This document shows, in pieces, positions 23,114 through 59,463 of a stretch of DNA of 64,000 bases. Positions within the stretch are counted from its first letter, which is position 1; each line of letters opens with the position of its first letter. The notes beneath the pieces were generated by a model that worked only from the letters and a program-made list of their open reading frames with translations, was not told the DNA's origin and ran no database searches. The stretch comes from Plasmodiophora brassicae (lineage: Eukaryota): the NCBI GenBank assembly GCA_036867785.1, contig CP145423.1, forward strand, positions 434,001 to 498,000, given 5' to 3'. A program made the position numbers and the translations under genes.

Positions 23114-23806
23114 CTCGAGGCGTTTCAGTGAATGGGGCGGAACCAGCGTTCCGCCATGAGTCATGCGTGCTGAGAAGTGAACCAACAATGGGCCACGACG
23201 TCACGGAGACTGTATTGAAAACGGAGGCTGTCAAAAGGAACAGCTCCATGAATCAGACTGTGCGCACGGTGGCGCCGGGTTCGGCGCGCAGGGCTGGCTC
23301 CTTGACGATTGCGAGCGGCCGCCACGTGCAGCTACCTATGTAGGTAAGGCACCCAGAACTGGCCAAAGCCCGAGCGGGCTCGCGGATTAAGAATCCGCAG
23401 AGTTTGCGACCGACGCAGACGCTGCAGCTGTCGTCCGTTGCACGAGAAAAAATCGGCAATCCGAGCGGGCCCCGTCTCTCATGGTGATTGAGGTCCGCTG
23501 TAAAAACGTCCTGCACAAAGAGTCCCCCCCCCCCCCCCACTGATCGCATCACGACCAACATCACGATTTCCGTCACAATACAAAATTACGATCACCCATT
23601 CGATGCCACTCGCAGTCTCCACCAGAGGTCCGAGACGAAAAACCTCCCACAGAGACGCGGCACCTTCCTGGAACACGGAGACACCCCGCGGCGCAATGAA
23701 TCGGCGCCGTCGCCACTGGTGTCGGCAGTCGCGCACAACCCATCTGGGAACCTGACTGGACTCTGAGTCTTACTGGCGCCCGCACCTGGCCTGCCGCCGG
23801 GGCACA

Positions 23807-24550
23807 ATGAATCCGGCGCCGATTGTTGCGGACGTCGGCGTCAACGCCATCTTGCCAGCGATCCCGGCGGCACCGCCGCTTCAGCGGGTGGGCGCCGCCC
23901 ATTTACGTCTCAGGGTCGCCGAGGTCCACAATGCGTCGTCCTGCGGGCTCGCCGTGACGACGTCAGATCTGGGCGACCACGTCACGTTCGTTGTCGCCTG
24001 CGACAACGCCAACGTCCCGGGCGCCGTCGTGGGACCGCCCGCCTGGGCCGCGCCGCTGCTCGAGCTTCCGGCACAAGTTGCCGCTTTACAAGGTCAAGTT
24101 GCCGCTTTACAAGGTCAAGTTGCCGCTTTACAAGGTCAAGTTGCCGCTTTACAAGGTCAAGTTGCCGCTTTACAAGGTCAAGTTGCCGCTTTACAAGGTC
24201 AAGTTGCCGCTTTACAAGGTCAAGTTGCCGCAGTACGAGAGCAACTCGTCGCGCAAGACGCCGCGATGCAAGCGCTAGACGCGCGGATCCTCAACGGGAC
24301 GGTTGAGGCGCCTGACGACATGATCGTGGCCGTTGTCAACGCGGCCGGCGATGCCGTGCCGGCGGCGTTCCCGGCGACGCGTCGGCAACTAACGGCGCTG
24401 ACCGGCGCTCACGCGAACGGTCTGCTGGCCTATTACGGAATGCCGGCGGGCGGCACCGTCGCGCAGCCGTCGGCGTCTGGCGCGCCGTCTCGGCGTGCGC
24501 AATGTAGGCGTTATCCAGTAGTCCTGATCCGAGCCCTCGAGCGGACATAA
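23807..24550 (+). pseudogene. Mug135-like (DUF1773 C-terminal) heptad-repeat gene, copy 1; 2-bp deletion frameshifts the last helix
   Basis: FPATRRQLTALTG..LLAYYGM motif; 7x 21-bp QVAALQG units at 24074-24220; CAGCCGTCGG versus CAGCGCCGTCGG in copy 2. Confidence 0.7.
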
Positions 24551-24666
24551 CCCCCCCGTTTCTTGAACACGGTCCTTGATGAGGTGTGGGTTTCAAAAGA
24601 CGAGCAATTATCTCCTATGTAAAAGACGCTCGACTTGAAGAACTGACCAAATTCGGGCAGTTTCCT

Positions 24667-25931: not shown

Positions 25932-25973
25932 GTCCTGACTGGGCGCCCGCATCTGGCCTGCCGCCGCGGCACA

Positions 25974-26573
25974 ATGAATCCGGCGCCGATTGTTGCGGAC
26001 GCCGGCGTCAACGCCATCTTGCCAGCGATCCCGGCGGCACCGCCGCTTCAGCGGGTGCGCGCCGCCCATTTACGTCTCAGGGTCGCCGAGGCCCGCAATG
26101 CGTCGTCCGGCGGTCTCGCCGTGACGACGTCAGAACTGGGCGACCACGTCACGTTCGTTGTCGCCTGCGCCAACGCCAACATCCCGGGCGCCGTCGCCGC
26201 CGGCGCGGGACCGCCCGCCTGGGCCGCGCCGCTGCTCGAGCTTCCGGCACAAGTTGCCGCTTTACAAGGTCAAGTTGCCGCAGTACGAGAGCAACTCGTC
26301 GCGCAAAACGCCGCGATGCAAGCGCTAGACGCGCGGATCCTCAACGGGACGGTTGAGGCGCCTGACGACATGATCGTGGCCGTTCTCAACGCGGCCGGCG
26401 ATGCCGTGCCGGCGGCGTTCCCGGCGACGCGTCGGCAACTAACGGCGCTGACCGGCGCTCACGCGAACGGTCTGCTGGCCTATTACGGAATGCCGGCGGG
26501 CGGCACCGTCGCGCAGCGCCGTCGGCGTCTGGCGCGCCGTCTCGGCGTGCGGAATGTAGGCATTATCCAGTAG
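25974..26573 (+). CDS. Mug135-like heptad-repeat protein, copy 2 (1 repeat unit), intact
   Basis: Near-identical to copies 1 and 3; ends RRRRLARRLGVRNVGIIQ. Confidence 0.75.
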   Translation: MNPAPIVADAGVNAILPAIPAAPPLQRVRAAHLRLRVAEARNASSGGLAVTTSELGDHVTFVVACANANIPGAVAAGAGPPAWAAPLLELPAQVAALQGQVAAVREQLVAQNAAMQALDARILNGTVEAPDDMIVAVLNAAGDAVPAAFPATRRQLTALTGAHANGLLAYYGMPAGGTVAQRRRRLARRLGVRNVGIIQ

Positions 26574-26820
26574 TCCTGATCCGATCCCTCGAGCGGACAT
26601 AACCCGCCGTTTCTTGAACACGGTCCTTGACGAAGTGTGGGTTTCAGAGCGTGTTTCAAGTAAAAATAGAGCAAAATCTGTCAGACTTTCGCCCAGTAGC
26701 TTCAGCCTCGATCGGGATGCCCTCGGAACATTCCGAGAGGCCACTGACCAGCTGACTGCGCAATCTATAAAAATCATTCTGTTGCTGTATCACGTCGGGG
26801 CGGACCGTCAACTTCTGACA

Positions 26821-26840
26821 GATTAACAGTCGTACGCGCT
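26821..26840 (+). promoter_or_regulatory. Primer-binding site complementary to the D-arm/anticodon arm of tRNA-Asn(GUU)
   Basis: Reverse complement AGCGC-G-TACGA-CTGTTAA-TC gives a D-stem 3' strand, anticodon stem and a loop with GTT; it directly abuts the 5' LTR. Confidence 0.7.
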
Positions 26841-26843
26841 GTG

Positions 26844-29800
26844 ATGTCGAACGAGGCGGCCGAGCAAGTGGGCAAGAAGAGCATGGGGTCGCTTGCCCGG
26901 ATCAGGGACGCGGCCGAAGACTTCAAGGAAGCATTCGTCACCGACACACTGGCGACAGAATCACTGAGGCCTGAGCACGAGCTCGCGAGAGAGGTGGTTG
27001 TCGATAGCATCAATTGCATGGCTGTCTGCAAGTAAAATTGGACGAGAGCGATGAAGGCGCTGAAGCTGGAGGACGATGACGACGTTGACGTCGTCGCTGC
27101 CATGATGCTGACCATGCGAGTGACGGAGGACTGGTTGGAACTTCTAGAGGACATGTACTGCGATCGCCTAGGGGTCAGGAGGAAGCGAACGCAAGCATCG
27201 GAGCGGGCGCAGGCATTGCGATCGAACCCTGAATCAGTTACGCGATCGGCCACGCCAAAGGAACTTGGGATCTCGACCAGAGTGGCGAAGTACTCAGGGA
27301 CAGACGGTATCTGTGCGACGTGGTTCGTTGACTTTGAGGGCATCATGAACCTGCTCCAAGTTGACCAGGCGATGTGGCGCGTATATCTGAACGGATGTTT
27401 CGTGGGCAAGGCAGGGAAGGCGTACACGACGTTCAAGCAGAGCCGGCCCGATGGATGGAGCTATGATGAGCTGAAGGAATACATGGTCGGCATGTTTGAC
27501 ACCAAGGAGATGAAGGACTTATCGAGGGACTTAGACTGGATTCGTCAACAACCGAAGGAGATGGCGAGTGACTTCAGACTACGCTGGGAGTAACTGATGT
27601 CCAAGATTACCCAGAAGGGGACGGTGATGACGGAGGAGTTTCAGATTTCGATTTTGAGGAACCGAATGTTGAGACGTTACGACTTGGATGTCAAGGACTT
27701 CAAGACTAAGGGTGAGCTGTTCAAGCACTGCATCGCCAAAGACCCTAAAGGCATGCGATCGAGCAAGAGGGACGGCAAGAAAGAGGATGGCGAAGATACA
27801 GTGATGTTCACTTTGAAGAACGGGAAGAAGGTCAACCTGGCCACCGTTAAGTGTCACCGATGCAACCAGATGGGACACTTCCAGTGGATGAAAGACAAGT
27901 GTGAAAAGGCCGGCAGTGACGACGGCAAAGATGAGGACGGAGAGATGTTCATGACGGTCAAGGACAAGGGCAAGTTCGACGAGGACATCTGGGTGAATGA
28001 CGATGCAGCCCCGTGGCACGTTTGCAATTCGCGGGAGGCATTTGTGGACATGGACGAATGCCAGGGCAAGGTATTGGGAGGCGGCAAAGAGTATGAGGGC
28101 GCCGACATCGTGGGGATCGGGACCGTGCGGATCACGACAGGGAATGGCAATCAGATCACGCTCAAGGAGACGCGATACGTGCCGAGCTTCAAGACCAATC
28201 TCATATCCGGTCAAAGAGTGATTGACACGGGATGTACGGTGAGCGGAGACAAGACGAAACTGGAGTACATGCGCAAGGGCAAAGTGGTGCTGAGCATGGC
28301 TCGGTACAAAGGGTATTGGGCGCTGAGGGCAACTCCGGAGCCTCAGTCGGTTCTATTCGGACAACCTGGACCGGCGGTGCCGCTGAGCACGTGGCACGAA
28401 CGCCTTGGACATGCATCGTATGACAAGCTGATGAAGTTGATCAAAGAAGAATCGTGCGAGGGCCTAAACGCGTCGGACGTCAAGGCACCTGAGGGGAAGT
28501 GTGTCGATTGCTTTATCGGGAAAAGCAAACGGCAGGCATTCGTGAAAGAAGGCGACGAGGCGAGGGAAATCGGAGAAGTGATACACGCGGACATCAGTGG
28601 CAAGCTCTCTGTCAGGGGACGGAGTGGGAACTGGTACTTCTCCGTACTTCGAGACAAGAAGAGCCGACATGGATGGGTGAAGCTGATCAAGCGGAAAAGC
28701 GAGGCAGGCCAGCACTTCATGGAGTTCAAGCCCTGGTTCGAGCGCCAGACAGGGAGGAAGATCAGAAGATATGCCAACGACAAGGGAGGCGAATACGTGT
28801 CGAAAGAGCTGCGGGAGTATCTGAACGCTGAGGGCATTGAGATTTGGGAGACCAACACTGCCACACCGAATGAGAACGGACTTGCCGAACGATACGTGGG
28901 AATGATCAAGGACATGGCGACTACGAACCACGAACGATCAGGCCTACCGAGAATGTTCTGGGATGATGCCGTGGAACACGCTGGAGTCATCACACCACTT
29001 CTACCAACGAACAAAGTGGAAGACGGGAAGACACCATTCGAGATCATCCACGGGCGGAAGCCACGAGTTTCCCAACTAAGACCATTCGGATGCCAGGCCA
29101 TCGTGTACCAGTCGAAAGACACGCGAAGGAGCTCGAGATCCAAAGCCAAGGGCATCGAAGGAGTGATGATCGGGTATGCGCCCAGCCGCCCAGGGTACAA
29201 GATCTACATCACAACGTCCAAGAAGGTGATCGTTTCAAGAGATGTCGTGTTTAACGAGCATGTGTTCCCCTACAAAATCGTACAGGAGGAGGCGAAGGCG
29301 AAGATGATTATGAACGAGATGGCAATGTTCACTGACGACGAGCCCGACGTGAGAATGCAAGACGTAATGAACGAAGTCATGTTCCAGCAGACCAAGGCGA
29401 GTGAGGTACCACTACCGACATCGTACGAGGAGGCGATCGCGGATGAGAACTGGAAAAGAGCAATTGAGGACGAGCAAGAGGCCATGAGAAATCGCGACGT
29501 GTTCCGACTGATGCCATTGCCGACGGGTCGAAAGGCACTGAAGTGTGACTACGTGTACAAGGCGAAGGCAAATCCTGATGGGTCCGTGAGCAAGTATAAG
29601 GCGCGACTTGTTGCGAAGGGGTACGAACAGGTGAAGGGGATTGACTACGTCGATACCTTTGCACCGGTGGCGAAGCTAGCAACTCTGAGGCTGCTGATTG
29701 GGCTGAAAGTGGTACGACGATACACCGCCTGGCAGAGGGATGTCAAAACGGCATTCCTGTATGCTGACCTGAAGGAGGACGTGTACATCCAACAGCCAAA

Positions 29801-30989
29801 AGGGATGGAAGATGATGACCACCCGGACTGGGTGTGGAAGCTGAATAAGTCGATCTACGGGCTGAAACAAGCATCGATCGAGTTTTACAAGCATCTAGTG
29901 AGCGCATTCCTGAAGGGCGGATTCGAACAATGCAAGAGTGATCCCTGTCTACTGAGGAAGGTCGATGGTGCCGATGTCGTGTTCGTGGCATTTCATGTCG
30001 ACGACATTCCGATTGTGGGGAGCTCGACCCGAATTATGCTCGAGGCTGACCAAGTGCTGAAAGATAATTTCACCGTCGAGGAGAGCGAGTTCGAATGGAT
30101 ACTGGGGATCAACATGAAGTGGTCGCCAGACGGAGGCGTACACCTTAGTCAAGAATCGTTCGTTGAGATGCTCCTGACCAAGTTCCACCTGACGAGCGCC
30201 AAGGGTGCGACCACACCGATTCAAAAGGGGGAGACTATATCAGCACGGGGGAGCCCAAGGACTGATGAAGAGCGGATGGAGTGCAAGCGGCTACCATACC
30301 GGGAGCTAGTCGGATCTCTACTGTACCTCACCGGAACGAGACCTGATATTGCGTTTGTGGTGGGACGACTGTGCCGTTTCATGAGCTGCTACGGCGTGGA
30401 TCATTACGAGGCAGCCAAGCGAGTACTAAGGTATTTGAAGACGACGAAGCACATGGCGTTGAAGTACTCTGGCTGCGAACAGAGCGAACAACTGAAGCTC
30501 ATCGTCGACTCTGATCACGCAGGGTGCCCTGACACTGGAAGGTCCACGACCGGGTACATGATCAAGTTCGGCGAGTGTATGATTACGTGGAAATCGGTGC
30601 TGCAGAAGACTGTGGCGCTGTCAACCACCGAGGCCGAGTACATGGCCTTATGTAGCGGCGTACGCGAGCTACTGTGGGTGAAGCAGGTGTGTGAGTTTCT
30701 TCAGGTCAAATTTGAAGGACCAATCGCGGTATTCACGGACAACACTGGAGCGATGGCCATTTCGAACCACCAAGGGGACGACCTGCGTGGGAGGACCAAG
30801 CATATGAACGTGCGCTACCACTTCACGAAAGAACAAGTACATGCAGGAACCATTAAGCTGCACCATGTACCGAGCACGAAGAACATTGCAGACATTCTCA
30901 CAAAGCCACTAACGAGGGATGCGTTTGAGGGGCATCGGGCGAGGATCCCGATCGATTCTGCGGGGGAGTGTCAGACTTTCGCCCAGTAG
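26844..30989 (+). pseudogene. Copia gag-pol in one frame, interrupted by TAA at 27033 and 27591
   Basis: CHRCNQMGH knuckle; WHERLGH..CVDC; HADISG/DKGGEY/NGLAER integrase; KARLVAKG, FHVDD RT; DSDHAG, TEAEY, ADILTK RNase H. Confidence 0.9.
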
Positions 30990-31261
30990 CTTCAGCCTCG
31001 ATCGGGATGCCCTCGGAACATTCCGAGAGGCCACTGACCAGCTGACTGCGCAATCTATAAAAATCATTCTGTTGCTGTATCACGTCGGGGCGGACCGTCA
31101 ACTTCTGACAAAATCAATAGAGGTCCTGACCAACAGGTTCGAAGTTACACGTTACGTGTACCTCTTTTTTCTAAAAAACAATAGAGGTGACGGCGTCCGC
31201 AACGGTACGGCATCGTTGTCGACCAGAAATGTGCTGTGTAGCGACTGAATGTGCTTCAGAG

Positions 31262-34860: not shown

Positions 34861-35816
34861 TAAATCATCCGAATGAATATACAGTTTCCGCTCGCTGTGA
34901 ACGTCTAATAATGACAATACTCCCATCGTCCAATCGCTGTTCGACTCAACGCAGCACGGCACCTACCGCATCACGCAATGACCAGCGCTGCAGTACGTGC
35001 TTACGTACCGCGTACAATGCGAACCGAGCACCGCACCGCCGCTGCTGGTCGTTATCGGCTGAGCGGCACTGTGCGTACTGTCACCGTGCTCGCGCGATCG
35101 GTCATCACATCGCCTGCCGACCTGCGCCACAGCTCCTTAACCGTATTTGCCCAGCTCCTAAATGTCGTCTTTGACATCGTCGTCGCCGCCCGACTCTCGG
35201 CGGTCGTCGTTGCGTTTATCCGGGTTGACGTACTCGTGGAGATCGCCGTCGAAGTCGTTGTCTATCGCCATGCCCGATCCCAATCATTCTACGGACGCGG
35301 TTAAGTGCACGATCGCGACGACGGGGACAACGAATACCACAGCGCGTACCTGAAGGCCGTCCTCATTGTGACCGTTGTCGAACTTATCTTGCTGGAGGCC
35401 CAAGAGTTGCTCTTCGTTCTCGATCTGGTCACTGACGTCGGCGCGGCGCACGCTGTAAACGTGGGTCCAACGCTCGCGCCTGGCCGCTGACGAACGCAGA
35501 CACGGATAGAAAAGAGGCTGACAGAGAGTCACAGCCCACACATGCCAGGTTGTAATGGCGCAGGTGGTTGCGGACGGCACAGGCGGCATGCCCTTCCGCA
35601 GATGACCACACCGACAACAACGATTGTTGGTCCCGTGGTAGTCACGAGGCCGGGCGTCCGACGAATGCGATTCGAAACACGGCCCGGCAGCCGAAACCGC
35701 CAGGGCGGGTACGACGCGCACGCATCGTCAATATGCTTTTGTTCTTTATGAGGTCTAATAGCGTTTGCAGCTTTCCCGAACACGACCGCCCGCCCGAACA
35801 TTCGCCCACGGAGGAG

Positions 35817-36322
35817 CCAGTTGCTACCAGTCGTACCAGTTTTGCTACCAGTTGTACCAGTTTTGCTACCAGTTGTACCAGTTTTGCTACCAGTTGTACC
35901 AGTTTTGCTACCAGTTGTACCAGTTTTGCTACCAGTTGTACCAGTTTTGCTACCAGTTGTACCAGTTTTGCTACCAGTTGTACCAGTTTTGCTACCAGTT
36001 GTACCAGTTTTGCTACCAGTTGTACCAGTTTTGCTACCAGTTGTACCAGTTTTGCTACCAGTTGTACCAGTTTTGCTACCAGTTGTACCAGTTTTGCTAC
36101 CAGTTGTACCAGTTTTGCTACCAGTTGTACCAGTTTTGCTACCAGTTGTACCAGTTTTGCTACCAGTTGTACCAGTTTTGCTACCAGTTGTACCAGTTTT
36201 GCTACCAGTTGTACCAGTTTTGCTACCAGTTGTACCAGTTTTGCTACCAGTCGTACCAGGTTTGCTACCAGTTGTACCAGTTTTGCTACCAGTTGTACCA
36301 GTTTTGCTACCAGTTGTACCAG
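35817..36322. repeat. 21-bp minisatellite (TACCAGTTTTGCTACCAGTTG), ~24 copies
   Basis: Near-perfect tandem array seen directly. Confidence 0.97.
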
Positions 36323-54859: not shown

Positions 54860-56935
54860 TCACCAGTAGTCGCCGCAGGAGCAGCGCCCGGCGTGGAAGT
54901 GGTGGTGGCGGTTGCCGTCGCGCACGTGCACGTCGCGGTGGAACAGGGCGGAGACGCGCCGCGTGCTCTCGTGACAGTCCGTGCAGGCCCTCAGGGTCTT
55001 GGTCAGCCGGATCGGCTCGTCGGGCGGCAGGACGTGCAGGGCGTACGCGATGGCGATCTTCTCGCTGTGCGCGAACACGACCCGGCGCAAGTCGTCGTCG
55101 GACGCGCCGCGCCTGGTCGCCACGGAGACGTCGGGCGCGTACCCGTCCCGCTCGAGGTCCTCCATCAGCCGCGCGTGGCGCCGCCTCAATTCCGGGTCGG
55201 CGTGCACCTTGGCGTCGTTCGCGTAAAAGTGCACGACAGACCGATCGGGGAGCAGGAGCGACGTTCGGCCGGGCACCTTGGACAGGCCCTGCGCCCGCAT
55301 GCGGTCGCGTAGCCGGTCGACGTCGTCGAACCGCCCAGCCGCCGCGTACACGTTCGACATCAGCACGTAGGCGGCTGCCGCGTACGACGACGAGCCCGGC
55401 AGCGCCAGCACGTTCGCGAACGCGCGTTCAGCGCGCGGCAGATCGTTGTGCCTGCGGCACGCGCTGAGCACCGCCATCCAGGACACGACGTTCGCGCCCG
55501 GGGCCGCCGCCGCCATCCGCTCGGCCTCGTCCAGGTTCCCGACCCGCCCATGCAGGCCGATCATGCAGTTCAGGTGCTCGTCGGCGGCGGCGACGCTCCA
55601 GGTCGACGTGAACTCGGCGGCGATCGCGTTCGCGCGACGCAGGTCGCCGGCATGGCCGCAGGCCGACAGCAGGGAGGACAGCGTGTGCCCGGTCGGCCGC
55701 ACGCCGCACGCCTTCATGCACTCGAACGTCGTGGTCGCCTGCGGCAGCATGCCGTGATGGCTGTAGGCCGAGATCATCGAGTTGAACGCGAAGGCGTCCG
55801 GCGGGGGCGACCCGGCCAGACGGGCGGTGAACGCGTCCTCGGCCGCCGGCAGGCACCCGCAGTCGTTGTAGGCGGCCACCAACGCGCTGACGACAGCGTC
55901 GTCCAGCGCGAGCCCTTCGTCGATCGCGTATCGATGCAGCGTGTGCAACGCGGCGAGCTCGGTGCAGCGTCCGCACGCGCGAACGAACAACGTGAACACG
56001 GGCAGGTCGACGGGGATGCCCCGGTCGACCATGGCCCGGAACACGTCCAGGGCGTCGGCGATGCGGGACGCCCTGCAGAGGGCCGACAGGATATGGGTGC
56101 GGATCCGGTCGGACGGCGGCAGGCCAACGGCGTCCATGACGGGCAGCGCCTGCAGGGCGGCGTCGACCCGGTTCTGCGACAGCAGCGCCTTGAACAGGTT
56201 GCCGAAGATCGTCTGGTTGTGCGGGGCCGCGATCGACGCCGACCGGACGAGGGCGAGAATCCGCTCGGCAACGTCGGCCGCCAGCGGCGACCTCGCCTCG
56301 GCGCAGCACGCCGCGAACATGGACAGGAGCTTGTCCGACATCTCGACGCCGTTGTCGATCGCGTCCGACACGAGGAACAAGGCGGACGCCGGGTTCTTCG
56401 ACAGCCTGCAGATGTTGGCGACGCCGAAGATGACGTTATGCGAACGCGGGCCGCTCTTCGCGTAGTGCTCGACGGCTTCCCGGGCCAGCACCGGGCGGGC
56501 CGCCTGGCACGCGCCGAGGAACGTGCAGAACAGGACGTCGGTGATGCGGACCCGGCGATCCGCGGCGGCGGCCATGACGTCCGGCGCCTTCGCCGGTAGG
56601 CACCGTTTGCAGACCTGCATCATGCTCGTGAAGAAGCGCACGTCTACGGCGACGCCCGCGTGGAGCACGCACTGGAACATGATCCAGGCGCGGCGCGGCT
56701 CCCACTCGTGCTGCAGCGCGCGAACCGCCAGCGACGCCGACGGCCGCGACACGGTCGCGCGGAACAGGCCCGACCCGGGCGCCATCGGCACCGCGTTCGC
56801 CGAAGCTGCAGGCGCAACTCGCGACGTCCGCCCATCCCGCCTCAGGGGGCGCAGCACCGCCAGCGAACTGCACCGGGCCCGCTGACCCCGCCCTGTCACG
56901 CCGCAGCAGCGAACGATCGCCGGCAGTGGGACCAT
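54860..56935 (-). CDS. PPR protein with E domains and an intact DYW cytidine-deaminase domain, intronless
   Basis: PPR motifs (FNSMISAYSHHG..G.RP), E1/E2 (YVLMSNVYAAAGRF), PG box, HSEK..CTDCH, HHF..GRCSCGDYW. Confidence 0.93.
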   Translation of the reverse strand: MVPLPAIVRCCGVTGRGQRARCSSLAVLRPLRRDGRTSRVAPAASANAVPMAPGSGLFRATVSRPSASLAVRALQHEWEPRRAWIMFQCVLHAGVAVDVRFFTSMMQVCKRCLPAKAPDVMAAAADRRVRITDVLFCTFLGACQAARPVLAREAVEHYAKSGPRSHNVIFGVANICRLSKNPASALFLVSDAIDNGVEMSDKLLSMFAACCAEARSPLAADVAERILALVRSASIAAPHNQTIFGNLFKALLSQNRVDAALQALPVMDAVGLPPSDRIRTHILSALCRASRIADALDVFRAMVDRGIPVDLPVFTLFVRACGRCTELAALHTLHRYAIDEGLALDDAVVSALVAAYNDCGCLPAAEDAFTARLAGSPPPDAFAFNSMISAYSHHGMLPQATTTFECMKACGVRPTGHTLSSLLSACGHAGDLRRANAIAAEFTSTWSVAAADEHLNCMIGLHGRVGNLDEAERMAAAAPGANVVSWMAVLSACRRHNDLPRAERAFANVLALPGSSSYAAAAYVLMSNVYAAAGRFDDVDRLRDRMRAQGLSKVPGRTSLLLPDRSVVHFYANDAKVHADPELRRRHARLMEDLERDGYAPDVSVATRRGASDDDLRRVVFAHSEKIAIAYALHVLPPDEPIRLTKTLRACTDCHESTRRVSALFHRDVHVRDGNRHHHFHAGRCSCGDYW

Positions 56936-57057: not shown

Positions 57058-59463
57058 CTACCAGCGGTCGGCACACGAGCAGCGACCGCGATGGAAGTGA
57101 TGCTGGGAGTGCATGTCGCGAACGTACACGTCGCGGTTGTAGATGCGGGAGGCGAGCCTGGTGAACGCGTGGCAGTCCCGGCACATCCACATGGAGTTCG
57201 TCAGGCGGATGGGGTCGCCAGGTGGCAGGGCGGCCAGCGCGGCCGCCAGGGCGATCTTCGGGCCGTGCAGGAAGACGGACTGGCGCGCGTCGTCGTCCGT
57301 TGCAGTCTGCTTCGTGACGACGGATACGTCCGGCGAGTAACCGTTCGCGAGAAGACGCTGGATGAGGTCCCCGTGCCCTGCACCGCAATTCGGGTCATCC
57401 GCACAGACGTGGGCCGAGCGGTCGGGCAGCTGGATCCAGGTTCGAGGAGGCCGCCTCGACAGGCCTCGCTCTTTCATGGAGTTCGCCAGCCGTTCGGCTT
57501 CGGCGACGTTCCCGACGGCAGCGAACAGGGCCGACATGAACGTGAAGATGGACGCCAGTGCCCGCGGTTCGATGGTCGGATAGGTCCCCAGGATGTGGGA
57601 GAAGGCGCGCCTCGCACGCGAAACGTCTTCGTGCCAGCTGCAAACCCGCAGCATGGACACCCAGGACATGACGTTCGCGTTCGCGTTCGTGTTCGCGATC
57701 CGCTCGGCGTCATCGAGGTCGCCGAGTCGGCCGCGTATCTCGATCAGCGCGGCGACGTCCGCGTCCGACAAGGGGACGCGCCAGGTGTCGGCGAACTCGT
57801 CGACGAACGCCTGGGCTGTCGTCAGGTCGCCCGATCGGGCGCAGCAGGTCAGCAGCGCCGACAACGTGCCGGCCTTCGGTCGCAACCCGCTGGCTTTCAG
57901 CTCGTCGAACAGCTGGAACGCATCGGTAGACAGACCATGCTGGCTGCACGCCAGGATCATGGCGTTCCAGGTCAGGATGCGACCCGGACGCGGCAACGAG
58001 CGGAACAGCGTCTCGCAAGCATCCGGGCGGCTGCACCGGTCGTAGGCGGAAATCAGCGACGACGACACGTTGTCGTTCGACAGGAGGTCGTCGTCGCGTG
58101 CGAACCGATGCAACACCTCGACGGACGAAGCGTCACAGCAACGACCGGCCGCATGGGCGACCTGCGTTAGCGCAGGGGCAGCGTTCCCGAGGCCCGGCGC
58201 GGCTTGCTGAAACAGGGCCATGGCACGCGGCATGTCGTCATCGTCGGCCAGGGCCGACAGCACGAGCAGGTCGGTGGAGACGGACGGGCGCAGGCCGGCC
58301 GCGGTCATCTCGCCCAGCGTCGCGCACGCATCGTCCAGGCGCCCGTTGCGAACGTACGCCGAGATCATGGCCGTGAACGTCGACACGTCCGGGAGCGTCC
58401 GGGCGCGGCGCTGCAGGAAGATCTGCTCCGACTTGGCCAGGTGGTCACAGCGGTCGTACGCTGCGATCAGCGCGCTGACGAACAGATGGTTGTCGAGGAC
58501 CTTGGCGTGGTCCCGGGCGTACTGGTGCAGGATCCGGACGTTCGGCAGGCGTGCATGCGCGAGCAGGACGCACAGGATGGGCACCTCGATCGTGATGTTG
58601 CGATCCACCATTGTCCGGTAGATCTTCATCGCGTCTCCGAAGCGATCGCCCTTGACGAGCGCGCAGATCACGTTGTTGAGCAGGAACCTCGTCGTCGGCA
58701 CCGCCGCCTTGTCCATCCGTTTCAGGGCCTCGAGCGCGGCGCCCAGCTGCTGATGCGACAGCAGGGCGCCAATCAGCGTGTCGAACGTCGACCGCTTCTC
58801 GAACGTTTTGACCTGCTTCGACAGGACGAGATTGGCGAGTCGCGCGACGGTATCCGAGGCAGACGCCGACCTGGAGGCAGAGCAGCAGCTCGCGAACGAC
58901 GCGAACAGGCGCTCAGACATGTCCACCTGGTTGTCGACCGCATCCGCGAAGAGGCGGAGGGCAGCGTCCGGCCTCTTCCCGATCCTGCAGACGTTGACGA
59001 CGGCGAAGATGACGTCGTGCGTGCGCAGGCCGGAACGAGCGTATTGCTCCAGGGCCTCGTCGACCGGGGTAGGCTGCGCCGATTGACACGCGACGAGGAA
59101 CGAGCACAGGAGCGGTTCGGTGACGATGATGCGGCGCGAGATCGCGGCACGCAGCACGGCGGGCGCCTTGGACGGCATGCGCTTCCTGCAGAACGCCAGG
59201 GCGACCTTCGCGAACTGCGCGTCGAACCGCCCGACGCGAAGAACGTGCTCGTACGCGGCCCAGGTCTGGGCGGGGTCCCTGCCCCGCACCGCCGACGCGC
59301 CGATCGCCTCGAAGTGCTCGTACTGGCCAAAGCGCCTGACGTGCGCCGGTCGCATGACGCCGGGACCCTGTCGCCACGGCCGTTGACCTATCGGCGCGCA
59401 CACCATCGACGGTCGACGACCCTGCCGAAGGCAGCAGCAGCAACGCGACCCGACGGTTGCCAT
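57058..59463 (-). CDS. PPR-E-DYW-like paralog with degenerate active site (HGPK, ends DRW), intronless
   Basis: Homologous to its neighbour; longer PPR array; HGPK..CRDCH..HHF..CSCADRW. Confidence 0.9.
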   Translation of the reverse strand: MATVGSRCCCCLRQGRRPSMVCAPIGQRPWRQGPGVMRPAHVRRFGQYEHFEAIGASAVRGRDPAQTWAAYEHVLRVGRFDAQFAKVALAFCRKRMPSKAPAVLRAAISRRIIVTEPLLCSFLVACQSAQPTPVDEALEQYARSGLRTHDVIFAVVNVCRIGKRPDAALRLFADAVDNQVDMSERLFASFASCCSASRSASASDTVARLANLVLSKQVKTFEKRSTFDTLIGALLSHQQLGAALEALKRMDKAAVPTTRFLLNNVICALVKGDRFGDAMKIYRTMVDRNITIEVPILCVLLAHARLPNVRILHQYARDHAKVLDNHLFVSALIAAYDRCDHLAKSEQIFLQRRARTLPDVSTFTAMISAYVRNGRLDDACATLGEMTAAGLRPSVSTDLLVLSALADDDDMPRAMALFQQAAPGLGNAAPALTQVAHAAGRCCDASSVEVLHRFARDDDLLSNDNVSSSLISAYDRCSRPDACETLFRSLPRPGRILTWNAMILACSQHGLSTDAFQLFDELKASGLRPKAGTLSALLTCCARSGDLTTAQAFVDEFADTWRVPLSDADVAALIEIRGRLGDLDDAERIANTNANANVMSWVSMLRVCSWHEDVSRARRAFSHILGTYPTIEPRALASIFTFMSALFAAVGNVAEAERLANSMKERGLSRRPPRTWIQLPDRSAHVCADDPNCGAGHGDLIQRLLANGYSPDVSVVTKQTATDDDARQSVFLHGPKIALAAALAALPPGDPIRLTNSMWMCRDCHAFTRLASRIYNRDVYVRDMHSQHHFHRGRCSCADRW

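What the first reader, a model, noticed from the sequence alone, without database searches (positions are those of the whole stretch)
26821..26840. Copia element apparently primed by a half-molecule of tRNA-Asn
Seen: there is no TGG-type PBS. The 20 nt abutting the 5' LTR are the reverse complement of AGCGCGTACGACTGTTAATC, which reads as D-stem 3' strand, anticodon stem TACGA, loop CTGTTAA (GTT = Asn) and 2 nt of the 3' stem. Known: Drosophila copia and yeast Ty5 prime from a 5' fragment of initiator tRNA-Met cut in the anticodon stem. Inference: the same mechanism here uses a different tRNA, implying a tRNA-Asn 5' half ending near position 40.
Basis: partly seen in the sequence, partly recalled or inferred. 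Interest (0 to 1): 0.7.

Follow-up and report, generated by a model that had tools for sequence, protein, structure and literature searches.

The report
Copia element with tRNA-Asn half primer
A young copia-type jumping gene, probably in the clubroot pathogen's genome, has a primer site that matches the middle of asparagine tRNA instead of a tRNA's end, which is a rare but already described way to start reverse transcription.

Summary
Window 26679-31110 is a complete Ty1/copia element. It has identical 142-nt LTRs, a 5-bp target duplication (AAATC), a purine tract, and one gag-pol frame in copia domain order. The 20 nt at 26821-26840 directly abut the 5' LTR, and no TGG-type site follows.

Their reverse complement is an exact internal piece of real tRNA-Asn(GTT) genes. 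All 5 of 5 exact matches in a metagenome scan lie in such genes, at standard tRNA positions 21-40. Complementarity stops sharply at both ends.

Runs that hold the window also hold a multi-copy, 74-nt tRNA-Asn-like gene. It matches 51 of 57 letters of that reference, but the tool did not print where the 6 differences lie. The host match is therefore likely, not shown. No RNA evidence for the fragment exists here.

The mechanism is not new. Half-tRNA priming is published for iMet (copia, Ty5), tRNA-Arg (Candida) and tRNA-Ile (plant Bianca). For rust-fungus Helenus/Copia elements it includes tRNA-Asn-GTT, and those internal regions begin with nearly the same motif.

The closest Pol relatives (95% and 93%) are named Plasmodiophora brassicae, so this would be a rhizarian example. 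Verdict: a new member of a known kind, of modest interest. This copy also carries two in-frame stops.

The parts
26674..26678 (+). Target-site duplication AAATC, left copy
   Evidence: Read directly. It has the same 5 letters as 31111-31115.
26679..26820 (+). 5' LTR, 142 nt, TG...CA, with TATAAAAA at 26766-26773
   Evidence: the repeat finder family D5, 100% identical to 30969-31110. blastn confirms that only these two copies are in the window. The TATA-like word was read; its function is inferred only.
26821..26840 (+). Primer binding site: a perfect complement of tRNA-Asn(GUU) standard positions 21-40. It directly abuts the LTR.
   Evidence: The predicted RNA duplex with the tRNA segment is 20 bp, -34.8 kcal/mol.
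26844..30989 (+). Single gag-pol frame: CCHC zinc knuckle, protease-like beta-barrel, integrase parts, RVT_2 reverse transcriptase, RNase H. In this copy it is interrupted by two in-frame TAA codons at 27033-27035 and 27591-27593. It starts 3 nt after the PBS and ends 21 nt inside the 3' LTR.
   Evidence: Translation. Pfam on 27597-30989: RVT_2 at 2.6e-57, SH3_retrovirus, Pol_BBD, gag_pre-integrs. Two database relatives (95% and 93% identical) start at the same Met and are open through both stop sites.
30962..30968 (+). Polypurine tract GGGGGAG, immediately before the 3' LTR
   Evidence: Read directly. Function is inferred from its position.
30969..31110 (+). 3' LTR
31111..31115 (+). Target-site duplication AAATC, right copy

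Best explanation
The 20 nt after the 5' LTR are the minus-strand primer binding site of a recently inserted Ty1/copia retrotransposon. The primer is a 3'-truncated cytoplasmic tRNA-Asn(GUU). It runs from the tRNA's 5' end to C40, about 41 nt in a 74-nt tRNA of this type.

Proposed course of events:
- The fragment's last 20 nt (positions 21-40: D-stem 3' strand, G26, anticodon stem 5' strand, anticodon loop, first two bases of the 3' strand) pair with the element's RNA.
- The 3'-OH of C40 lies opposite the first base after U5.
- Reverse transcriptase extends it into the LTR to make minus-strand strong-stop DNA.
- The rest follows the usual LTR-element cycle, with plus-strand priming from the GGGGGAG tract.

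Shown: the anatomy, and the exact identity of the site with authentic tRNA-Asn genes.

Inferred:
- That the host tRNA-Asn has the same 20 letters.
- That a fragment ending at C40 exists.
- That it is made by an endonuclease that leaves a 3'-OH. An RNase P-type cut in the anticodon stem has been proposed for copia and Ty5. Whether the cut comes before or after annealing is open.
For: (1) The element is complete and young. It has identical LTRs, a 5-bp TSD and a purine tract, and copia domains in the order integrase before RT.

(2) The site sits where a PBS must be, with no gap. No TGG-type site follows.

(3) The exact 20-mer is found in 5 of 5 metagenome matches inside tRNA-Asn(GTT) genes, at one and the same tRNA position. 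These are three different gene sequences with T-run terminators.

(4) Complementarity ends exactly at the LTR border on one side and at the D loop on the other.

(5) Self-priming is not supported. No stretch over 6 nt in the LTR is complementary to the PBS region.

(6) Runs that hold the window (X1, X6, X17) each hold a contig that lies on the reference tRNA-Asn at letters 7-63, with 6 other letters and no gaps.
- In X1 the contig is exactly 74 nt, at depth 198 against 11 for the other record laid.
- The loose ends complete a proper acceptor stem and a T-run.
- The upstream flank is G+C-rich like the window.
- Two metagenome tRNA-Asn genes that both carry the 20-mer differ from each other at 7 places in the same span, none of them in the 20-mer. 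Six differences are therefore what an intact 20-mer would allow.

(7) The same kind of site is in print.
- Anticodon-region PBSs occur in Copia and Helenus elements of rust fungi, including tRNA-Asn-GTT (PMC10886601, passages).
- In the supplement, the internal regions of Helenus-3_PGr and Helenus-2B_PSt begin cgattaacagtcgaa, and that of LTR-2_PSt begins caattaacagtcgaa.
- Half-tRNA PBSs in plants are restricted to Ty1/copia lineages (PMC6317226, passages).
Against: - The host tRNA-Asn was not read letter by letter. Read laying reported 6 differences in 57 letters but listed none of their places. From the loose end, 2-3 can be inferred to lie in the T stem. The other 3-4 could in principle be two compensatory pairs in the anticodon stem, which would put up to 3 mismatches in the PBS duplex.
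- Run X12 (organism B) laid nothing on the tRNA.
- Only this one copy of the family could be read as DNA, so conservation of the PBS is untested.
- There are no RNA data on a fragment ending at C40.
- This copy has two in-frame TAA stops. It cannot make its own full polyprotein, so its identical LTRs do not prove that it is autonomous.
- From general knowledge of eukaryotic tRNAs (recalled, not tested): positions 26, 34 and 37 of tRNA-Asn are usually modified (m2,2G, queuosine, t6A). This could weaken pairing or copying of the primer.
Confidence: 0.75

Rival explanations
1. The site is a real tRNA-Asn-type PBS, but it does not fit the present host's tRNA-Asn. It would have been inherited from another host by horizontal transfer, or from an older tRNA variant. 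The element would now be dead or would prime poorly.
For: The places of the 6 differences between the host contig and the reference tRNA-Asn are unknown. This copy has two in-frame stops. The nearest relatives outside the two Plasmodiophora-named proteins are at most 39% identical, so the family's origin is obscure.
Against: The LTRs are identical. At least two further, diverged copies (93-95% protein identity) carry the same organism's name, which argues for activity within this host. From established retrovirus biology (recalled): the PBS is recopied from the primer at each cycle, so a fresh insertion reflects the primer actually used. Two tRNA-Asn genes that share the 20-mer differ at 7 places elsewhere in the same span, so 6 differences need not touch it.
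Confidence: 0.1
2. Priming does not use tRNA-Asn at all. It would use self-priming of the Tf1 type or another small RNA, and the tRNA-like 20-mer would be a captured fragment without a priming role.
For: No direct evidence for the primer exists here. Self-priming is predicted for some plant copia lineages (PMC6317226, passages).
Against: No stretch over 6 nt in the LTR is complementary to the PBS region. The 20-mer begins at the very first base after the LTR and is perfect. The same motif heads the internal region of unrelated rust-fungus elements that are read in print as tRNA-Asn-primed.
Confidence: 0.04
3. Intact tRNA-Asn anneals through positions 21-40 and is cut between 40 and 41 only afterwards, on the element's RNA inside the particle. 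No free tRNA-Asn half would then exist in the cell. This is a variant of the best explanation that differs in when the cut is made.
For: A review states that Ty5 initiates from a 3' end made by RNase P-mediated internal cleavage (PMC5371799, passage). The cut site lies in a stem, not in the loop where stress-induced tRNA halves end (recalled).
Against: Nothing here tells the two apart.
Confidence: 0.35

Closest known systems
Rust-fungus (Puccinia) Helenus TRIMs and their Copia partners (Kojima 2024, PMC10886601)
   Same: The PBS abuts the 5' LTR and is complementary to the anticodon region of a tRNA. One lineage is assigned to tRNA-Asn-GTT. Internal regions of Helenus-3_PGr and Helenus-2B_PSt begin cgattaacagtcgaa, which shares GATTAACAGTCG with this element. 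TSDs are 5 bp and the elements are tied to the Copia superfamily.
   Different: - The named tRNA-Asn examples seen are non-autonomous, with a tRNA-like pol III unit in the LTR. This element is a coding copia.
- Those sites start one base further 3' in the tRNA (position 41, not 40). Read against their own tRNA stem (TTCGA), they look shorter, about 15 nt against 20.
- The host is a basidiomycete, not a rhizarian.
- I saw passages and the sequence supplement, not Figure 3 itself.
Drosophila copia and yeast Ty5 (half-molecule initiator tRNA-Met)
   Same: Same superfamily. [quoted passage not shown] The primer is a 5' fragment cut in the anticodon arm (PMC5371799 passages; preprint 10.1101/2025.04.25.647736 passages). 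From recall, not checked here: the copia and Ty5 sites also end at standard position 40.
   Different: The tRNA is Asn(GUU), not iMet. The complementarity is longer, 20 nt reaching through the D stem. The primer fragment has been shown biochemically for copia and genetically for Ty5 (recalled; the primary papers are not held). Nothing of that kind is shown here.
[quoted passage not shown]
   Same: Copia-type elements whose PBS matches an internal region of a non-initiator tRNA (PMC4139406, passages).
   Different: A different tRNA, and a yeast host. The review gives no positions that I could compare.
[quoted passage not shown]
   Same: Half-molecule tRNA PBSs are confined to Ty1/copia, and the tRNA species is typical of a lineage (PMC6317226, passages).
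   Different: No 1/2tRNA-Asn type is listed there; tRNA-Asn appears only as a 3'-end primer, in 2% of elements. This Pol is at most 39% identical to plant copia proteins. No tree was made to place it.

Membership tests
Ty1/copia LTR retrotransposons (Pseudoviridae) | Two direct LTRs ending TG...CA, flanked by a short target-site duplication | tested here: met
   142-nt LTRs, 100% identical. TSD is AAATC.
Ty1/copia LTR retrotransposons (Pseudoviridae) | Pol with copia-type reverse transcriptase (RVT_2) and integrase placed before RT | tested here: met
   In the pol ORF, gag_pre-integrs lies at residues 263-310, SH3_retrovirus at 485-559 and RVT_2 at 634-876. The rve core domain itself did not reach E 0.001. 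It is also not listed for the two close relatives.
Ty1/copia LTR retrotransposons (Pseudoviridae) | PBS next to the 5' LTR and polypurine tract next to the 3' LTR | tested here: met
   PBS at 26821-26840. GGGGGAG at 30962-30968.
Half-tRNA (3'-truncated tRNA) primed copia elements | PBS complementary to an internal tRNA segment that ends in the 3' strand of the anticodon stem; no complement of the CCA end | tested here: met
   A perfect 20-nt complement of tRNA-Asn(GTT) letters 22-41 of 74, which are standard positions 21-40, in 5 of 5 environmental tRNA-Asn genes. No TGG in the next 30 nt.
Half-tRNA (3'-truncated tRNA) primed copia elements | The matching tRNA is one of the host's own cytoplasmic tRNAs | tested here: inconclusive
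   No genome is held, and there is no tRNA in the window. Runs holding the window contain a 74-nt, multi-copy tRNA-Asn-like contig that matches 51 of 57 letters of the reference over the span containing the 20-mer. The places of the 6 differences were not printed.
Half-tRNA (3'-truncated tRNA) primed copia elements | PBS type conserved among copies of the family | not testable with these tools
   There is only one copy in the window.
Half-tRNA (3'-truncated tRNA) primed copia elements | The tRNA 5' fragment exists, is packaged, and is joined to minus-strand strong-stop DNA | not testable with these tools
   This needs small-RNA or particle data. All runs offered were contigs.

The most novel reading that the evidence does not exclude
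Copia-type elements in three eukaryotic supergroups place the primer's 3' end at the same spot, position 40/41 in the 3' strand of the anticodon stem. The groups are opisthokonts (fly, yeasts, rusts), plants, and now a rhizarian. The tRNA varies: iMet, Arg, Ile, Tyr, Asp, Asn.

That pattern would mean the cut is made by a conserved, structure-specific activity that does not care about tRNA identity. It could be a host activity (RNase P-like) or an element-encoded one, acting on the tRNA or on the tRNA-PBS complex. Elements would then switch tRNA simply by mutating the PBS. This element, with its unusually long 20-nt site and very compact layout, would be a clean substrate for finding that activity.
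Probability: 0.3. Interest if true: 0.5.

Novelty: new member of a known kind. Interest (0 to 1): 0.3.

Why it matters
How half-tRNA primers are made is still not settled, even for copia and Ty5. Each further tRNA species and host lineage that shows the same end point narrows the possible nucleases.

A tRNA-Asn example outside fungi would show that primer switching within this mode is widespread. If the window is from the clubroot pathogen, it would be an example from Rhizaria.

In practice, LTR annotation pipelines that look only for complements of tRNA 3' ends will report elements like this one as having no PBS.

None of this changes the basic picture of retrotransposition.

Tried and rejected
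- Whole genome: none is held for this window, so the host tRNA set could not be scanned.
- tRNAs in the window: ARAGORN found 0. Rfam at gathering scores found 0 families.
- Exact 20-mer: 0 hits in viral contigs and 0 in genome contigs.
- Pol relatives in viral contigs: none.
- Other copies or solo LTRs in the window: none.
- Sequencing runs: 24 listed, and 20 hold half or more of the words. No RNA holder is listed, so nothing can be said on expression.
- Read laying on L003:1-820:
  - Tables 3 and 4 listed no differences although the pieces carry 6 and 8 other letters, so the decisive letters were not obtained.
  - X12 laid nothing.
  - A second, low-depth tRNA-like contig in X6 (8 other letters, different flanks) was not identified. 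It may come from other DNA in that sample.
  - A piece at 471-509 in X1 is an unrelated A+T-rich match.
- A second complementarity box between other parts of the tRNA and the leader 26841-27300, as in bipartite PBSs: no match of 8 nt or more.
- Tf1-type self-priming: rejected, as no complement over 6 nt lies in the LTR.
- An alternative genetic code as the reason for the two in-frame TAA codons: rejected. Both close relatives have ordinary sense codons there, and the frame ends in TAG.
- My passing guess that the host was Acanthamoeba was dropped.
- Literature:
  - The 20-mer, its complement and its RNA form occur in no held paper.
  - A search for Plasmodiophora with tRNA-fragment terms gave nothing relevant in the 15 papers listed, none of which holds the word Plasmodiophora.
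  - A search for Plasmodiophora with copia, LTR and retrotransposon listed 15 papers. I opened only one, a 2026 pangenome preprint. The passages I saw give TE content only and say nothing on PBSs.
  - The primary Ty5 paper (PMC1369817) is not held.
- Supplements of the bioRxiv preprints were not seen. Supplements of PMC6317226 (PBS tables) were not opened and may list further half-tRNA types.

Full report
**What is there.** Window 26679-31110 is a complete LTR retrotransposon of 4,432 bp.
- Two 142-nt direct repeats (26679-26820 and 30969-31110) are 100% identical and run from TG to CA.
- They are the only copies in the window.
- The bases just outside differ, so the borders are exact. The element is flanked by a 5-bp duplication, AAATC, at 26674-26678 and 31111-31115.
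- A purine run, GGGGGAG, at 30962-30968 precedes the 3' LTR.
- One reading frame runs from the ATG at 26844, three bases after the site in question, to a TAG at 30987-30989 inside the 3' LTR.
- The part from 27597 on matches RVT_2 (2.6e-57), the retroviral integrase SH3-like domain, the Pol beta-barrel domain and the GAG-pre-integrase domain. Integrase parts lie before the reverse transcriptase, which is the Ty1/copia order.

**The observation.** Bases 26821-26840 read GATTAACAGTCGTACGCGCT and begin at the first base after the LTR.
- No TGG follows within 30 nt, so there is no conventional site for a tRNA 3' end.
- The 20-mer is unique in the window even with three mismatches allowed.
- I scanned three public collections for the exact reverse complement. 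There were no matches in viral contigs or prokaryote genomes, and five in metagenome contigs.
- All five lie in tRNA genes by the Rfam tRNA model. One is cut by the end of its contig. ARAGORN calls four of the five as tRNA-Asn with anticodon GTT.
- The five comprise three different gene sequences, in A+T-rich DNA, followed by T runs and with no encoded CCA. They are eukaryote-type nuclear genes and clearly not from the G+C-rich organism of the window.
- In every one the 20-mer is letters 22-41 of the 74-nt gene. That covers the last D-loop base, the 3' strand of the D stem, position 26, the 5' strand of the anticodon stem, the loop CTGTTAA, and the first two bases of the 3' strand. These are standard positions 21-40.
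- The element's complementarity to the tRNA stops dead at both ends. This is not a leftover tRNA gene.
- The predicted duplex is 20 bp at -34.8 kcal/mol.

**The host's tRNA.**
- No genome is held, and the window has no tRNA gene.
- I therefore laid the contigs of four runs that hold the window on one of the metagenome loci (L003, tRNA at 380-453), at 80% likeness.
- Runs X1 and X6 (organism A) and X17 (organism C) each gave a contig covering 386-442, which is letters 7-63 of the tRNA. Each has 6 other letters and no gaps.
- In X1 that contig is exactly 74 nt long, at depth 198 against 11 for the other record laid. This is what a multi-copy gene with divergent flanks gives in a de Bruijn assembly.
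- The loose ends supply the missing acceptor-stem letters on both sides. They pair with each other, with one G-U pair, and are followed by a T run. The upstream flank in X17 is G+C-rich like the window.
- So the organism has a 74-nt tRNA-Asn-like gene of the same build.
- The tool did not list where the six differences are, although the pieces carry them.
  - From the loose end, the 3' strand of the T stem differs from the reference. Two or three of the six must then lie in its 5' strand; this is an inference.
  - The two metagenome genes L001 and L003 both carry the 20-mer, and they differ from each other at seven places in the same span. All seven lie in the D loop, T stem and T loop, and none in the 20-mer. 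Six differences are therefore fully compatible with an intact 20-mer.
  - They would also be compatible with two compensatory changes in the anticodon stem.
- Run X12 laid nothing.
- I put the chance that the host tRNA-Asn matches at least 19 of 20 letters at about 85%. The main reason is that a freshly inserted element with identical LTRs must have been primed in this host. It is not shown.

**Who the host is.** A protein search with the pol ORF gave two near relatives, 95% and 93% identical, that a public source names as Plasmodiophora brassicae proteins. Everything else is 39% identical or less.
- The window's G+C content, about 0.52-0.68 in 4-kb steps, fits my recollection of that genome. 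So do the 'plant metagenome' holders among the runs.
- The window is probably from the clubroot pathogen or a very near relative. I did not pursue this further.

**State of this copy.** Both relatives start at the same methionine as 26844 and are open throughout. This copy has two in-frame TAA codons, at 27033-27035 and at 27591-27593. The second lies between the capsid-like part and the CCHC zinc knuckle.
- This copy therefore cannot make its own full polyprotein.
- Either it was copied from a defective RNA with proteins supplied in trans, or the stops arose after insertion.
- That does not touch the reading of the PBS, but 'young' should not be read as 'autonomous'.

**How it most likely works.** The site is the minus-strand primer binding site, and the primer is a 3'-truncated tRNA-Asn(GUU) ending at C40.
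- Its last 20 nt pair with the element's RNA. Reverse transcriptase extends the 3'-OH of C40 into the LTR.
- The LTR carries TATAAAAA at 26766-26773. If transcription starts some 30 nt downstream, R plus U5 would be under 30 nt and the strong-stop DNA very short. This is inference only.
- The end point lies in a stem, two bases past the loop. It is not where stress-induced tRNA halves are cut, and priming needs a 3'-OH.
- A review states that Ty5 starts from an end made by RNase P-mediated internal cleavage (PMC5371799, passage). I take an RNase P-type cut as the most likely source.
- Whether the cut is made on free tRNA or after annealing is open.
- Tf1-type self-priming is not supported, as no complement over 6 nt lies in the LTR. 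Nor is a bipartite site, as no second box of 8 nt or more lies in the leader.

**Comparison with what is known.** The literature held here goes further.
- In a survey of 5,410 plant copia elements, half-molecule sites occur only in Ty1/copia. They are 1/2tRNA-Met in Osser, Bryco and part of Gymco-II, and 1/2tRNA-Ile in Bianca. tRNA-Asn is listed there only as a 3'-end primer (PMC6317226, passages).
- Most to the point is Kojima 2024 (PMC10886601, passages).
[quoted passage not shown] - In its sequence supplement the internal regions of Helenus-3_PGr and Helenus-2B_PSt begin cgattaacagtcgaa, and that of LTR-2_PSt begins caattaacagtcgaa. The two motifs I searched occur 7 and 8 times in the file.
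  - That is the same loop and stem complement as here, shifted by one base at the priming end (position 41 instead of 40), and shorter.
- A search for tRNA-Asn, PBS, retrotransposon and anticodon together found 3 papers: Kojima 2024, the plant survey, and a human tRNA-fragment review.
- The 20-mer itself is in no held paper.
- I found nothing on primer sites of Plasmodiophora elements. Of the papers listed I opened only the 2026 pangenome preprint, whose passages give TE content only.

**Novelty and verdict.** The anatomy is real and clean, and the reading as a half-tRNA-Asn site is well supported by sequence. It is not a new mechanism, and not even a new tRNA for this mechanism.
- What would be new is the host lineage (a rhizarian) and a coding copia with a full 20-nt tRNA-Asn site.
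- I rate it a new member of a known kind, interest 0.3.
- The boldest reading still open concerns the recurring end point at position 40/41 across unrelated tRNAs and three supergroups. It may reflect one conserved, identity-blind cutting activity.
- For copia and Ty5 that end point rests on my recollection and was not checked here.

Noticed in passing
window 27033-27035 and 27591-27593: There are two in-frame TAA stops in the gag-pol frame of an element whose LTRs are identical. The two close database relatives are open at both places and start at the same Met. The second stop separates the capsid-like part from the zinc knuckle.
   Followed up: partly
window 26841-26846 and 30962-30989: The layout is very compact. 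The gag-pol ATG lies 3 nt after the PBS. The polypurine tract is inside the coding frame, and the frame ends 21 nt inside the 3' LTR.
   Followed up: no
window about 27996-28010 (residues N385-A389 of the frame from 26844): Where copia proteases usually have D-S/T-G-A (recalled), this frame and both relatives read N-D-D-A-A. The columns are invariant in 3 of 3 sequences. The rve integrase core is also not detected by Pfam at E 0.001 in this Pol. It is not listed for the two relatives but is listed for nearly all distant hits.
   Followed up: no
window 54860-56935 (-) and 57058-59463 (-): Two neighbouring intron-free ORFs encode PPR proteins with E motif and DYW deaminase domains (DYW 5.6e-28 and 1.3e-22). 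This architecture is typical of the organelle RNA-editing factors of land plants and is rare elsewhere (recalled). It is notable if the window is from a rhizarian plant parasite.
   Followed up: no
window 23775-24556 and 25942-26608: A tandem duplication of about 0.8 kb sits just upstream of the element, with spacing of about 2,050-2,170 bp and 96-99% identity. It contains 21-nt tandem repeats at 24022-24231 and 26177-26302.
   Followed up: no
window 35779-35988: An array of a 21-nt unit (TTGCTACCAGTTGTACCAGTT) has near-perfect copies.
   Followed up: no
L001:186-820: An A+T-rich metagenome contig holds tRNA genes packed within 820 nt, separated by repeated spacers. Rfam finds four (264-334, 380-453, 537-608, 751-820). 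ARAGORN adds one at 186-260 with an odd anticodon call.
   Followed up: no
Read laying on L003:398-438, run X6: A second, low-depth (6 against 992) tRNA-like contig has 8 other letters and different flanks. It is presumably from other DNA in that sample and was not identified.
   Followed up: no
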